Below are positions 36,096 through 40,873 of a stretch of 43,214 nucleotides of DNA, piece after piece. The position numbers and the translations under genes were made by a program. Positions within the stretch are counted from its first letter, which is position 1. Each line of letters opens with the position of its first letter. Below the pieces are notes generated by a model. That model was given only the letters and a program-made list of their open reading frames with translations. It was not told where the DNA came from and ran no database searches. The DNA comes from Candidatus Adlerbacteria bacterium RIFCSPHIGHO2_12_FULL_53_18 (GTDB lineage: Bacteria; Patescibacteriota; Minisyncoccia; Phycocordibacterales; SBAW01), in the NCBI GenBank assembly GCA_001775475.1, contig MEWW01000017.1:1-43214 (forward strand), given 5' to 3'.

Positions 36096-36200
36096 TTTCG
36101 CTGAATTGGTCTTCGAAAAGTCCTCGGTTCTCCCGTCTCGCGCCGCTCTCTGCGGAGCGTCCTCGCGGGCCAGACTTTTCTCACACCAATTCCAGCTCCA
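36096..36200. repeat. 105-bp structured intercistronic repeat, copy 1 (atpE-atpF)
   Basis: Core GAAAAGTCCTCGG.TCTCCCGTCTCGCGCCGC...CCTCGCGGGCCAGACTTTT shared with 40769-40873. Confidence 0.9.
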
Positions 36201-36212
36201 CGTATAGATAGT

Positions 36213-36653
36213 ATGGAACAGGTTCTGCACGTATTCGGCATAGACTGGAAGCTGCTTTTAATCAACGCGGCGAACTTCGGCCTGCTTTTGGCGGCGTTGA
36301 CCTACTTCTTCTATAAGCCGATGATGCGGATGCTCGACCTGCGCCGCGACAAAATCGCGCACGGCGTTGAGGCCGCGCAGAAAGCCGAGGCGGAACTTAA
36401 GGAAATCGAGGCCTCGCGCGCCGCCAAGCTGGCCAAAGCAGGGAAGGAGGCCGACCAGGTGGTTTCCGAAGCGCGCAGTGCAGGCGCCGAAAAGCAGAAA
36501 GAAATCGTTTCTCTTGCCGAAGCCGCTGCCGCACGCACGCTTGTCGAGGCCGAGGCACAGGCGGAGGATATGAAGCAAAAGGCCGTGCAGGAGAGCAAGC
36601 AGGAGGTCGCAAAGCTCGTCGTGCTTGGGATGGAGAGGGCGCTCAAAAAATAA
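36213..36653 (+). CDS. atpF: ATP synthase Fo subunit b
   Basis: N-terminal TM, YKP....D.RR, Ala/Glu-rich coiled coil; operon position. Confidence 0.92.
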   Translation: MEQVLHVFGIDWKLLLINAANFGLLLAALTYFFYKPMMRMLDLRRDKIAHGVEAAQKAEAELKEIEASRAAKLAKAGKEADQVVSEARSAGAEKQKEIVSLAEAAAARTLVEAEAQAEDMKQKAVQESKQEVAKLVVLGMERALKK

Positions 36654-36654
36654 T

Positions 36655-36909
36655 ATGACCCTAGCTGCTCAATATGCCAAAGCGCTCTACGAGAGCAACG
36701 CGCCGGAAGGGGCGCGGTTAAAAAATCTGCGCGAGACCTTGAGACGCCGCGGACATGAAAAGCTTTTGCAGCAAATTTATACGGAGTACAAACGGCTGGT
36801 CGAGGAAGAAAAAAGACTGCAGGAATATAAAAAGATAACGCCGGAGAAAGAACAAACCCGCATACTGCTCGAGCTCTACCAAAAACTAGTACACACACCC
36901 TCGCTGTAA
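36655..36909 (+). CDS. atpH: Short ATP synthase delta-like subunit
   Basis: AAQYAKALYE N-terminal delta motif; between atpF and atpA; only 84 aa. Confidence 0.7.
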   Translation: MTLAAQYAKALYESNAPEGARLKNLRETLRRRGHEKLLQQIYTEYKRLVEEEKRLQEYKKITPEKEQTRILLELYQKLVHTPSL

Positions 36910-36912
36910 ACT

Positions 36913-38469
36913 ATGGCTAACTTTATAGAACAATTTAAAAAAGAGATCGAAGGCTTTGTCCCGAGCGAGCGAGCGCAAGGAGGTATCGTGACGCGCGTGC
37001 AAGACGGCGTTGCGGAGATTGAGGGCCTGGAGCGCGCGGGCATGTCGGAGATGGTGCGTTTTAATATTGCAGAGGGCAAGCCGCTTCAAAAAGCAGTTGA
37101 GGGCCAAAGTCACGTGTACGGCGTCATTTTGAACCTGGAAGAGGAGTCAGTGCGCGCGATTATTTTAGGCGACCAGGCTTCCGTTGCCGAGGGCATGCCG
37201 GTTGAGGCAACAGGAACGACGCTTTCTATCCCTGTGGGGGAGGCACTGCTTGGCCGCGTGGTCTCGGCCTTAGGCGAGCCTTTGGACGGCCTCGGGGCAA
37301 TCAAGGCGGAGAAACACAACCCTATTGAGCGCGAGGCGTACGGCGTGATGGACCGACAGAGTGTTAACCAGCCCTTGCACACCGGCATCAAAGCCATCGA
37401 CTCGATGATCCCGATTGGCCGCGGCCAGCGCGAGCTTATCATCGGTGACAGAGGCACCGGCAAAACGACGGTTGCAATAGACACGATTTTAAACCAGCTT
37501 GCAGAACCGGAAGAGAGCCGCCCTGTGTGCATCTACGTAGCGGTCGGCCAAAAAGAAAGCAAGACGGCAAGACTCAGCGGCCTGCTTAAAGAGCGTGGAG
37601 CGATGGACTACACGATTATCGTTGACGCCGGCGCCTCCGCACCCGCAGCACTGCAATACTTGGCGCCCTTTGCAGGTGCGGCGATAGGCGAGTACTTCAT
37701 GGATAAGGGCCGCGACGCCTTGATTATCTATGACGACCTCTCCAAGCACGCGGTGGCCTACCGTGCACTTTCACTCCTGTTGCGCCGCCCGCCGGGCCGC
37801 GAGGCGTACCCGGGCGACGTGTTTTATCTCCACTCGCGCCTCTTGGAGCGCGCGGCAAAGCTCAACGCAGAAAAAGGCGGGGGTTCCTTAACCGCGCTCC
37901 CCATCATCGAGACGCAGGAGAACGACATCTCCGGCTACATCCCAACCAACGTGATTTCTATCACCGACGGGCAGATATTTTTGGAGACCGACCTCTTTAA
38001 CAAAGGTACGCGGCCTGCCATCAACGCCGGCAACTCGGTGTCACGCGTAGGCTCCGCCGCGCAAACCAAGGCGATGAAAAAAGTCTCCGGCAAGATCAAG
38101 CTCGAGCTGGCGCAGTTTCGCGAGCTGGAGGCCTTTATGCAGTTTGCACAGGACCTCGACCCCGACACCAAAAAGCGCATCGACCGGGGAGCGCGCATGA
38201 TGGCGATTTTGAAGCAAAAGAACGGTGCTCCAATGGCGTTCGAGCGGCAGGCGGTGGTGATTTATGCCGCGGTGAACGGTTATCTTGAAAGAGTTGCGGT
38301 AGGCCGCGTCGGCGAGTTTGAAGAAAAATTCCTGAACTTCCTCGACTCAAGTGCCAACCATGTGCTTGAGTCTATAGCCAAAGCAAAGGATATCGTTTTG
38401 CAGACCGAAGAGGAGTTAAAGACGCAGCTCAAAAAGTTCGAAGAGACACATCCGGACCTCTTTAAGTAG
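36913..38469 (+). CDS. atpA: ATP synthase F1 alpha
   Basis: [40 protein letters not shown]. Confidence 0.98.
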
Positions 38470-38470
38470 T

Positions 38471-39385
38471 ATGGCAGGCTTAAAACAAATCAAAACTAAA
38501 ATCCGCTCGGTGCAGAAGTCGCGCCAGGTCACCAAGGCGATGGAGGCGGTTTCTGCGGCCAAAATGCGCAAGGCGCAACAGCGTGCACTTGCCGGCCGCG
38601 CGTATGCTCGCGCGGCATCCGGCATTTTGGCGCGCGTCTCGGGCGCAAGAGAGCTTAAGGGCCACATGTTGACCGAAGCGAGATCGGTAAAGCATGCTCT
38701 GTATATTGTTATCACCAGCGACAAGGGGCTCGCAGGAGCCTTAAACAGCGCGGTCTTGCGTGCTACGCACGCTGACATAGAGAAACTCGGCCTCTCTCCA
38801 AGCCAGATAACGGTTGTTGCTATAGGCCGCAAGGCGGCCGACTACTTTGTGGCACGCGGCTACACAGTGGAGCGCTCCACCCACAACACCGACACGGTAA
38901 CAGGCAAGTTTATCAACGAGCTCGTTGCCATGGCGGTGCAGCGTTTTTCGAGCGAGGGCGTTGATGTCGTAAAAATCGCGTATCAGAACTTTTTTTCTAC
39001 GTTTGAACAGCGACCAACATTGCGCACCATATTTCCACTTTCGCTGGGCGAGCTTGAGGCGGTAGTTAAAGATATTGTGCCTGTTAGGGGAGTATTTGCT
39101 GACACGGCAGGAGTGGAGCGCCCGGCTGGCTACACTATCGAGCCTAGCGAGGAAGAAGTGCTCGAAGCAACCCTGCCGCGGCTCGCCTCAATTTTCGTCT
39201 ATCATGCGTTGCTGGAGAGCCAAGCAAGCGAGCACAGTGCGCGCATGGTGGCGATGAAAAGTGCCTCTGACAAAGCCGCGGAGCTCGCGCACACGCTCAC
39301 TATCACCTTTAACAAAGCGCGGCAGGCGGCGATTACGCGCGAGGTTTCGGAAATTACCGGCGGCATGGAAGCGATGAGCACATAA
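38471..39385 (+). CDS. atpG: ATP synthase F1 gamma
   Basis: TKAME.V, SDKGLAG, SEHSARM.AM and ARQAAITRE motifs. Confidence 0.97.
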
Positions 39386-39395
39386 TATAAACCAT

Positions 39396-40766
39396 ATGAA
39401 AGGAGAAATTAAACAAGTTATAGGGCCGGTTGTCGACGTCTACTTTGCAGGGGAGACATTGCCTGCAATTCGCAACGCGCTTAAAACCAAAGTGGGGAAT
39501 CGCTCGGTAACGCTTGAGGTTGCCGCACACATCGGGCTTGGCCGCGTGCGCGCGATTGCGCTCCAAGACACTTCCGGCCTCGCGCGCGGCGAGGCAGTCG
39601 AAGATACTGGCGCACCTGTGATGGCGCCGGTAGGAGAGGCTACACTGGGGAGGCTCTTTAACGTGATTGGCGAGCCGATTGACGGCAAGCCAGCACCTGA
39701 TGCTACAAAGCTCCCGATACACCGCGATGCACCTCCTTTTTCTGAACAACGCACCAAAGCAGAGGTATTTGAGACTGGCATTAAATCAATCGACCTCCTC
39801 GCCCCGTTTATCAAGGGCGGTAAGGTAGGCCTCTTTGGCGGTGCAGGCGTGGGCAAGACGGTGATGATGCAGGAGCTTATCCGCAACGTCGCGACCGAGC
39901 ACTCAGGCTACTCGGTGTTTGCCGGAGTGGGCGAGCGCGTGCGCGAGGGCAACGACCTCTATCACGAAATGAAAGAGACCGGCGTTATCGACAAACTTGC
40001 GATGGTCTTTGGTCAGATGAACGAGGTGCCGGGTGCCCGCGCCCGCGTGGGGCTAACCGGCCTTACCATGGCGGAGTACTTTCGCGACGAGATGGGCAAG
40101 GACGTACTCTTTTTTATGGACAACGTGTTTCGCTTTGTGCAGGCAGGTTCTGAAGTGTCGTCTTTGCTCGGCCGCGTACCTTCGGCCGTGGGCTACCAGC
40201 CGACCTTGGCGGAGGAGATGGGCCAGCTACAGGAGCGCATTACCTCAACCAAAAAGGGTTCTATTACTTCTGTGCAGGCTATTTACGTGCCGGCAGACGA
40301 CCTCACCGACCCGGCACCGGCAACGACCTTCTCCCACCTCGACTCAACCATCGTGCTCTCGCGCCAGCTGGCGTCGCTGGGTATCTACCCGGCTGTTGAG
40401 CCGCTTGAGAGCAGCTCGACTGCTTTGGCACCTGAGGTAGTGGGCGAGGAGCACTACCAGGTGGCGCTTGAGACCAAGCGCGTCTTGCAGCGCTACAAAG
40501 ACTTGCAGGACATTATCGCGATTCTAGGTATTGAAGAGCTTTCCGACGAAGATAAGCAGCTGGTGTACCGCGCGCGCAAGATCCAGCGCTTTCTCTCGCA
40601 GCCGACACACGTGGCGGAAGTATTTTCCGGTGTGCCAGGTGTGTATGTGCCGGTTGCTGAGACCGTGCGGGCGTTTAAAGAAATCTTGGATGGCAAGCAC
40701 GACGACAAGCCGGAGAGTGCCTTCTACATGAAGGGAGGAATTGATACAGTGAAGGCTGAGGGATAA
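39396..40766 (+). CDS. atpD: ATP synthase F1 beta
   Basis: [26 protein letters not shown] and EELSDED (DELSEED) motifs. Confidence 0.98.
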
Positions 40767-40768
40767 CT

Positions 40769-40873
40769 TTTCGCTACTTGATTCCTTGAAAAAGTCCTCG
40801 GGTCTCCCGTCTCGCGCCGCCTCCTGCGGGGCGGCCTCGCGGGCCAGACTTTTTCTCGGAACAAGTAGCTCCA
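40769..40873. repeat. 105-bp structured intercistronic repeat, copy 2 (atpD-atpC)
   Basis: Same core as 36096-36200 with a different but still complementary outer stem. Confidence 0.9.

What the first reader, a model, noticed from the sequence alone, without database searches (positions are those of the whole stretch)
36096..40873. Two covarying 105-bp structured elements at the stoichiometric step-downs of the atp operon
Seen: the copies lie after atpE and after atpD. The core is nearly identical, but the outer stems are entirely different and still pair (GCTGAATTGGT/ACCAATTCCAGC versus GCTACTTGATTCC/GGAACAAGTAGC), and the A4/T4 stem becomes A5/T5. Established: c (about 10 or more copies) exceeds b (2), and beta (3) exceeds epsilon (1). 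Inference: a repeat family co-opted as mRNA stabiliser or attenuator to tune subunit ratios, or a mobile structured element favouring highly expressed operons.
Basis: partly seen in the sequence, partly recalled or inferred. Interest (0 to 1): 0.72.

Follow-up and report, generated by a model that had tools for sequence, protein, structure and literature searches.

The report
Invertible palindromic repeat of Paceibacteria
The two look-alike hairpins in this ATP synthase operon are real, but they are copies of a roughly 100-base palindromic repeat that lies scattered through related ultra-small bacteria, between genes and in frame inside essential genes, faces either way at the same sites, and likely folds as single-stranded DNA, so it is likely a tolerated passenger rather than a device for setting subunit ratios.

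Summary
Both copies are real (36097-36199 after atpE; 40770-40872 after atpD). They belong to a dispersed family: 52 of 79 other genomes of the genus carry it, and 60 of 104 copies with context lie in frame inside Pfam-confirmed genes such as polA, uvrB, ligA and ileS. The invariant part is a lopsided core; the ~21-bp arms covary. The strand with the conserved structure (A·G mismatches 502 vs 10; C-GNA-G triloops 66 vs 16) is antisense to the atp mRNA. Only 10 of 70 genomes have it at atpE-atpF, 6 of 61 at atpD-atpC and 2 of 58 at both. At 23 of 37 shared sites both orientations occur, in some pairs apparently one copy flipped in place. No mobilising enzyme was found. The stoichiometry idea keeps one point: step-down junctions collect hairpins more than other atp junctions. 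This is a Rickettsia-palindromic-element-like repeat. I found no paper on it, but this scan noted this kind before on other DNA; the flipping and DNA-type folding signature did not come up there.

The parts
35856..36083 (+). atpE, ATP synthase subunit c (upstream of copy 1)
   Evidence: ORF; TIGR01260 above cut-off
36097..36199 (-). Element copy 1, from one terminal GNA motif to the other; the structured (GA-rich) strand is the minus strand; paired stem 36100-36196
36120..36175 (-). Copy 1 core: invariant GTCTGG...CCGAGGAC (minus strand) enclosing a variable inner hairpin with a tandem GA/GA mismatch
   Evidence: (core invariant in 339 of 340 copies selected on it)
36213..36653 (+). atpF, subunit b; start codon 16 nt after the stem of copy 1
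   Evidence: ORF; TIGR01144 above cut-off
39396..40766 (+). atpD, subunit beta (upstream of copy 2)
   Evidence: ORF; TIGR01039 above cut-off
40770..40872 (-). Element copy 2, GNA to GNA; paired stem 40773-40869; genome G035 has a copy with the most similar inner hairpin at the same junction in the opposite orientation
40794..40849 (-). Copy 2 core, 50 of 56 nt identical to the core of copy 1
40878..41108 (+). atpC, short subunit epsilon (76 aa); start codon 8 nt after the stem of copy 2
   Evidence: ORF; epsilon models match below cut-off

Best explanation
The two hairpins are copies of a dispersed 75-105-base palindromic repeat of Paceibacteria that likely spreads and flips as a folded single DNA strand, and the atp junctions are likely sites that tolerate it rather than sites that need it. 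Shown: an invariant lopsided core sits about 21 bp inside each end of a long stem whose sequence is free but whose pairing is kept; one strand carries the G·A mismatches, G·T wobbles and GNA triloops; copies lie between genes and in frame inside genes, in both orientations, often at the same site in sister genomes. Inferred: a protein acting in trans binds the core on folded single-stranded DNA and cuts near the GNA motifs at the foot of the stem, as HUH transposases do with IS200/IS605 ends and REPs, so that the hairpin can be lifted out and put back elsewhere or the other way round; flips could also come from template switching between the arms during replication. Inferred: insertions survive only in flexible protein loops and at operon junctions where less output of the next gene does no harm, which includes the two atp step-downs.
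For: In-frame copies: 60 of 65 scanned host ORFs are Pfam-confirmed, 39 sense and 21 antisense; orthologs in G000 are shorter at that loop in dus, tsaD, ileS, holB, argS. Covariation: 123 two-sided changes vs 43 in shuffles, 0 of 500 as high, slid controls 38-59 (19 copies). Strand asymmetry in 340 copies: A·G 502 vs C·T 10, G·T 257 vs A·C 42, C-GNA-G loops 66 vs 16 with all four N; GCGNAGC mini-hairpins are far more stable in DNA than RNA (PMC13037366, passages). Ends: GNA motif at about 21 bp from the core on both sides (108 and 96 of 195 vs 42 and 34 in shifted windows); GNA-to-GNA length is a multiple of 3 in 21 of 37 in-ORF copies (p 0.003) vs 12 of 34 others. Flips: 73 flipped vs 91 same-way same-site pairs; 23 of 37 sites hold both orientations; flipped partners are each other's best or second-best arm match of 339 in five pairs. 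atp census and tree.
Against: No mobilising enzyme found: RAYT-like genes do not co-occur with the element (33/20/15/12, Fisher p 0.63), lie near only 1 of 195 copies, have their own different hairpins; five element-rich genomes have no Y1_Tnp match. No excised or empty allele in four DNA runs (7 joints, none at the elements; contigs drop rare variants). No clean filled/empty pair of sites was obtained, so the ends and the target are inferred. The DNA-versus-RNA signal is not clean: GNRA tetraloops 24 vs 10 also favour the GA-rich strand, cUNCGg loops 2 vs 14 favour the other strand, and a cruder central-motif count gave 73 vs 35. Among the closest pairs (flanks at least 90% alike) 2 of 2 face the same way. 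Copies share ancestry, so counts are not independent. Replication-strand bias is weak (18 of 25, p 0.04) and runs opposite to the IS608 rule.
Confidence: 0.65

Rival explanations
1. Co-option: whatever its origin, a copy at atpE-atpF or atpD-atpC is kept by selection because its mRNA hairpin shields the upstream message from 3' exonucleases or dampens translation of atpF and atpC, helping the c:b and beta:epsilon ratios.
For: Element at 16 of 131 step-down junctions vs 0 of 90 roomy others; any hairpin 40 of 131 vs 6 of 90; 13 of 16 in one orientation. The mRNA strand folds at -43 and -53 kcal/mol and ends 16 and 8 nt before the next start codon. A small terminator-like site lies within copy 2 (13 such sites found vs 7.9 +/- 3.1 in shuffles). 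3' protective structures are an established mechanism (PMC5927463, passages).
Against: Most relatives manage without it (49 of 70 atpE-atpF spacers are 30 nt or shorter), gains are scattered on the tree, both junctions are filled no more often than chance, reversed copies exist. Conserved structure is on the antisense strand. Copies inside essential genes in both orientations rule out strong termination. Tolerance predicts the same enrichment.
Confidence: 0.2
2. A host-serving DNA site: the fold is a landing pad for a host protein on single-stranded DNA (priming, repair, topoisomerase or nucleoid protein) and is kept by host selection; new copies arise rarely by recombination, and flips are a by-product of the inverted arms.
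For: The core is invariant across families while copy number is low (1-15 per genome); orthologous copies persist with compensatory changes in sister species; mini-hairpins occur at phage and plasmid priming signals (PMC13037366, passages); REPs bind host proteins (PMC6006769, passages); no transposase is linked.
Against: 27 of 80 genomes of the genus and 291 of 300 other genomes of the order had no match; spacing and sites differ between sisters; genome-specific inner-hairpin subfamilies suggest spread within genomes.
Confidence: 0.15
3. An RNA element: the GA-rich strand is made as a small RNA (from antisense or read-through transcription) and spreads by reverse transcription; the structure signal is an RNA fold.
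For: G·T(U) wobbles (257 vs 42) and tandem G·A pairs are also typical of RNA; GNRA tetraloops 24 vs 10 on that strand; that strand folds lower with RNA parameters in 320 of 340 copies.
Against: GNA triloops outnumber GNRA loops (66 vs 24); orientation to transcription is free and the GA-rich strand is more often antisense; no reverse transcriptase match in 4 of 5 genomes tested, including G000; no Rfam family.
Confidence: 0.12

Closest known systems
Rickettsia palindromic elements (RPE; as reviewed in PMC10969869 and PMC3733652, passages read)
   Same: About 100 bp palindromes; found both between genes and in frame inside housekeeping genes; reduced-genome host; no dedicated transposase known; hosts genes include uvrB, polA, ligA and tRNA enzymes, as reported for intragenic REPs and RPEs.
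   Different: RPEs are described as encoding a conserved peptide; this element is read in both orientations and several frames. Its arms are free in sequence around an invariant lopsided core. Different phylum. In-place flipping is not mentioned in the passages I read.
REP / REPIN elements with RAYT (TnpA-REP), and CGTC-tagged REPs (PMC3733652, PMC6006769, passages read)
   Same: Strand-specific imperfect hairpin with conserved mismatches; dispersed; mostly between co-oriented genes when intergenic; may affect mRNA as a side effect.
   Different: No GTAG or CGTC tag at the foot of the stem (a GNA motif on both sides instead); conserved part is internal; no link to the RAYT-like genes of these genomes, which carry their own REP-like hairpins.
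IS200/IS605 ends (IS608, ISDra2; PMC6006769, passages read)
   Same: Works like them in the proposed model: a folded single strand read by structure, cutting at a set place near the foot, no target duplication.
   Different: One long hairpin rather than two subterminal ones; no tnpA or tnpB; orientation bias weak and opposite to lagging-strand-template targeting.
Bacterial MITEs (Correia, ERIC, Nezha; PMC3184786, passages read)
   Same: Small, gene-less, folds into a long stem, co-transcribed with neighbours.
   Different: The terminal inverted repeats are not conserved between copies and no target duplication is seen.

Membership tests
RPE-like palindromic element | Dispersed palindrome of about 100-150 bp | tested here: met
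   74-99 nt for core plus arms (5th-95th percentile); 1-15 copies per genome
RPE-like palindromic element | In-frame insertion in unrelated protein genes | tested here: met
   60 of 65 scanned host ORFs Pfam-confirmed; shorter orthologs in G000
Rickettsia RPE proper | Conserved encoded peptide | tested here: not met
   39 sense and 21 antisense copies, several frames
Rickettsia RPE proper | Sequence homology to RPE families | not tested
   No RPE sequences were fetched
REP / REPIN | GTAG or CGTC tetranucleotide 5' of the hairpin foot | tested here: not met
   Base profile at the stem ends shows a GNA motif on both sides
REP / REPIN | Copies flank a cognate RAYT gene | tested here: not met
   1 of 195 copies within 2.5 kb of a RAYT-like gene; 30 RAYT-like loci show other hairpins; no co-occurrence
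MITE | Terminal inverted repeats conserved among copies | tested here: not met
   Arms covary but are not conserved
MITE | Target site duplication | tested here: inconclusive
   Left and right GNA differ in 51 of 71 copies, but no clean empty site was obtained
Non-autonomous IS200/IS605 derivative | Autonomous partner with the same ends around tnpA | tested here: not met
   No long, ORF-carrying form among fetched loci (most loci were selected by the short form); no Y1_Tnp in 5 element-rich genomes
Non-autonomous IS200/IS605 derivative | Single-strand excision and cleavage at fixed sites | not testable with these tools
   Needs in vitro cleavage or circle detection; contigs of four runs showed no skipping joint
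Integron attC site | RYYYAAC / GTTRRRY boxes and cassette arrays (consensus recalled) | tested here: not met
   Core reads GTC/GAC; copies are dispersed and often inside genes
Known structured RNA (Rfam 15) | Match at gathering score | tested here: not met
   Only tRNAs in the window; only weak miRNA-type hairpin matches in 8 loci
3' mRNA-protective structure or terminator of the atp operon | Conserved at the junction across relatives, on the sense strand | tested here: not met
   10 of 70 and 6 of 61, 3 reversed
3' mRNA-protective structure or terminator of the atp operon | RNA 3' end or coverage step at the hairpin | not testable with these tools
   No RNA holder listed

The most novel reading that the evidence does not exclude
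A family of gene-less elements that are read, moved and inverted purely as folded single-stranded DNA: an unknown recombinase or nuclease binds the invariant lopsided core, measures two helical turns, and cuts at the paired GNA motifs, so the whole hairpin flips in place even inside essential genes, swapping a 25-30-residue protein loop between two unrelated sequences.
Probability: 0.2. Interest if true: 0.8.

Novelty: new variant of a known kind. Interest (0 to 1): 0.45.

Why it matters
It removes a false lead on ATP synthase stoichiometry and adds a well-defined repeat family to a kind (RPE- and REP-like palindromes without a known transposase) whose mode of spread is still open. The invariant core, fixed arm length and strand-specific DNA-type motifs give a precise bait for finding the protein, and in-place flips inside polA, ligA, recJ or tgt show essential proteins tolerating wholesale replacement of a loop.

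Tried and rejected
Rfam: no family. RAYT-like Y1 transposases as mobiliser: no co-occurrence, no adjacency, own hairpins; one had a GTCCTCGG/CCGAGGAC half-match within a few hundred bases (1 of 30), and two REP-like palindromes at atpD-atpC contain the same 8-mer, which I could not tie to this family. Reverse transcriptase: 1 of 5 genomes. Tyrosine recombinase: one Xer-like gene in each of 5 genomes, uninformative. Phage origin: 0 of 127 core-pattern matches in viral contigs had the outer stem. ORF-carrying full-length form: none found. Arms copied from the target: disfavoured because arms have a family-wide base profile and stay similar in orthologous and flipped copies. Excision or splicing: no joint skips either copy in DNA contigs (at 80% likeness was too cluttered and its tables were cut); no RNA holder listed, which is no evidence on expression. 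Phylum-wide scan is unreliable: that pattern returned 0 even for G000, and one search missed copies found, so gapped-pattern counts are lower bounds; its matches outside the order lacked the stem. A replication-strand score from 5-kb windows (99 vs 57) is confounded by gene direction. The first tree run did not finish and was replaced by an unrooted-type FastTree, midpoint-rooted. Nine inside-ORF calls were left out of the Pfam scan as likely spurious ORFs or not holding a true copy.
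Full report
Observation. The window is contig C17 of a 540-kb genome, G000. The region is an F-type ATP synthase operon. Two copies of one element lie at 36097-36199 (after atpE) and 40770-40872 (after atpD). Their 56-nt cores match at 50 of 56 positions; the arms differ in the middle but share their ends and align at about two thirds of positions, so 'entirely different' is too strong. Both strands of both copies fold better than all 200 shuffles. Contigs from public DNA runs cover each copy without a difference. 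A third, degenerate copy lies in frame in an ORF behind a pnp-like gene on contig C6 (the pnp label is my recall from the sequence).

The family. An exact gapped pattern finds the core in 52 of 79 other genomes of the genus, 1-15 copies each, with no match to the reversed control; a 15-letter pattern finds 9 of 300 other genomes of the order (one of them a chance match without the stem). The scan of genome contigs stopped at 122 loci; 140 of 156 matches then held had the outer stem, and the records with non-CPR titles fell among the 16 without it. Titles of true carriers name Paceibacterota, Adlerbacteria, Kaiserbacteria, Nomurabacteria and Minisyncoccia, some are labelled Saccharibacteria; that G000 is a Paceibacteria genome is my inference from this and its size. 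None of 127 matches in viral contigs had the stem. Rfam has no match. Gapped patterns undercount, so these are lower bounds.

Anatomy. On one strand the element reads GNA, an arm of about 21 nt, GTCTGG, a variable inner hairpin, usually a four-base AGAH bulge (325 of 340), CCGAGGAC, the complementary arm, GNA. Short variants without the bulge exist. In 19 equal-length copies 84% of stem cells pair, with 123 two-sided changes against 43 in shuffles and 38-59 in slid controls. Mismatches are strongly one-sided: in 340 copies A·G 502 vs C·T 10 and G·T 257 vs A·C 42; C-GNA-G triloops 66 vs 16 (54 vs 12 among 286 distinct inner sequences), all four N. GCGNAGC mini-hairpins are exceptionally stable in DNA and much less so in RNA (PMC13037366, passages). 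Against a clean DNA reading: GNRA tetraloops are 24 vs 10 on the same strand, cUNCGg loops 2 vs 14 favour the other strand, and a crude central-motif count gave only 73 vs 35. In the window this GA-rich strand is the minus strand, antisense to the atp mRNA. The GNA motif appears right of the core in 108 and left in 96 of 195 copies (42 and 34 in shifted windows; 55 and 11 for the complement); the two GNAs differ in 51 of 71 copies, and at least 2 bp close them in 55 of 117 against about 18 expected.

Where copies sit. Of 104 copies with context, 74 were called inside an ORF; I scanned 65 and 60 hit Pfam families: polA 6, uvrB 4, ligA 4, recJ 4, ileS 4, pheT 4, a prmC-type methylase 3, and dus, tsaD, tgt, argS, CCA enzyme, IscS-type, def, sortase and others (gene names follow from the Pfam domains). 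39 are in one orientation to the gene and 21 in the other. G000's own orthologs are 10-35 residues shorter at that loop in several cases, while others align poorly because the loop is variable, and 7 of 26 gave no spanning alignment. GNA-to-GNA length is a multiple of three in 21 of 37 in-ORF copies against 12 of 34 others. PMC3733652 (section 15 and passages) reports the same gene classes for intragenic REPs and RPEs.

Across the genus the element is at atpE-atpF in 10 of 70 genomes (8 as in G000, 2 reversed), at atpD-atpC in 6 of 61 (5 and 1), and at none of atpB-E (0 of 67), F-H (0 of 66), H-A (0 of 65), A-G (0 of 14), G-D (0 of 23); 2 of 58 genomes have both, 1.2 expected; 49 of 70 atpE-atpF spacers are 30 nt or less. 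On a tree of AtpB+E+F from 70 genomes, carriers are scattered and only two are sisters (midpoint root, no test of clades). So the operon does not need the element. Yet step-down junctions do collect it (16 of 131 vs 0 of 90) and other hairpins (40 of 131 vs 6 of 90 in all), and 13 of 16 face one way. That fits tolerance, since lowering output of the next gene costs little there, as well as mild co-option; kin are not independent and I have no RNA data. Copies inside essential genes in both orientations argue against strong termination, although one small terminator-like site is called within copy 2.

Flipping. Among 340 copies, pairs at the same site (both flanks homologous) face the same way in 91 cases and opposite ways in 73 (15 vs 12 at 75% flank identity or more; 2 vs 0 at 90% or more). 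23 of 37 multi-copy sites hold both orientations. In several flipped pairs the partner is the best or second-best arm match of 339 (L057/L673, L048/L677, L604/L183 rank 1; L709/L701, L714/L701 rank 2), and L709, L714 and L701 share an unusual long inner hairpin, which points to one copy inverted in place. Other flipped pairs are not alike (L027/L728 rank 193) and may be separate insertions. The window's copy 2 and the reversed copy of G035 at the same junction are best matches in the inner hairpin but not in the arms (rank 60). The GNA ends turn with the core, so the inverted unit is the whole hairpin. Inversion between inverted repeats by template switching is a known passive route (recalled; search gave nothing bacterial).

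Mobiliser. G000 has two RAYT-like genes, each flanked by its own short hairpins. They do not track the element across 80 genomes, 30 such loci show other hairpins, 1 of 195 copies lies near one, and five element-rich genomes have no Y1_Tnp match. Reverse transcriptase was found in 1 of 5; each of 5 has one Xer-like recombinase. No ORF-carrying long form turned up. No contig joint skips either window copy. The enzyme step is therefore inference by analogy with HUH transposases, which bind hairpins on single strands and cut at set positions near the foot (PMC6006769, passages). Orientation follows the replichore in 18 of 25 copies in two genomes, weakly and opposite to the IS608 rule.

What is known. 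Nine paper searches listed no paper describing this or any such repeat in Patescibacteria; the library lacks most subscription journals, and I opened no supplements (the family lists of PMC3733652 are in supplements and could bear on this, though it predates most CPR genomes). I read passages of PMC10969869, PMC3733652 (plus section 15), PMC13037366, PMC5927463, PMC6006769 and PMC3184786; the rest were seen as listings only. Within this scan, RPE-like repeats of Patescibacteria have been noted many times, one at atpE-atpF that may be this same family (e1-814887; I could not see its sequence, and a look-up by sequence found nothing). These notes are unchecked and are not evidence. A look-up for the triloop, single-strand and flipping features found no finding with all the words.

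Verdict. Real, non-random, and not an atp-specific regulator: a new variant of the RPE/REP kind of palindromic repeat, with an invariant internal core, free covarying arms, a strand-specific fold of likely DNA type, and evidence of inversion in place. Interest 0.45.

Noticed in passing
G000:C6:15490-15570 (L033): Third, degenerate copy of the element, in frame near the start of a hypothetical-protein ORF behind a pnp-like gene.
   Followed up: partly
L172 (G000:C4:13798-14472) and L173 (G000:C5, about 6100-6740): Two RAYT-like Y1 transposase genes, each flanked by its own pair of short REP-like hairpins; 30 such genes across the genus show related AGG-N5/6-CCT hairpins in inverted pairs. A REP-RAYT system in Paceibacteria, separate from this element.
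   Followed up: partly
atpD-atpC junctions of G371, G341, G036, G008, G363 (L268, L288, L289, L510, L569): A second, unrelated hairpin family with an invariant lopsided core and variable paired arms, same architecture as the element studied here.
   Followed up: no
atpD-atpC of G369, G021, G345 and atpE-atpF of G342 (L269, L280, L281, L530); atpE-atpF of G368, G018 (L243, L248): Two more unrelated structured repeat families at the same atp junctions.
   Followed up: no
atpD-atpC of G347, G348, G024, G027, G360, G376 (L278, L284, L557, L551, L293, L283): The spacer looks like a small ORF of about 30-50 codons, several hydrophobic, instead of a hairpin.
   Followed up: no
window 40878-41108 and 36655-36909: Epsilon is only 76 aa (matches about the first 80 of 130 model positions) and the ORF in the delta position is about 84 aa with no NCBIfam match: both subunits look truncated.
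   Followed up: no
L265 (G035:C9) vs window: G035's AtpC is the closest to G000's (80%) while its AtpE is distant (53%), hinting at recombination within the atp operon between lineages.
   Followed up: no
window 28310-34336: Run of paralogous secreted-looking ORFs with a repeated N-terminal motif plus a signal-peptidase-like gene (repeats D2-D4; TasA/SipW-like by recall).
   Followed up: no
window 25323-25362 and 27842-27881; 19462-19503 and 20256-20297: Two other two-copy repeats, 95% and 86% identical (D7, D20).
   Followed up: no
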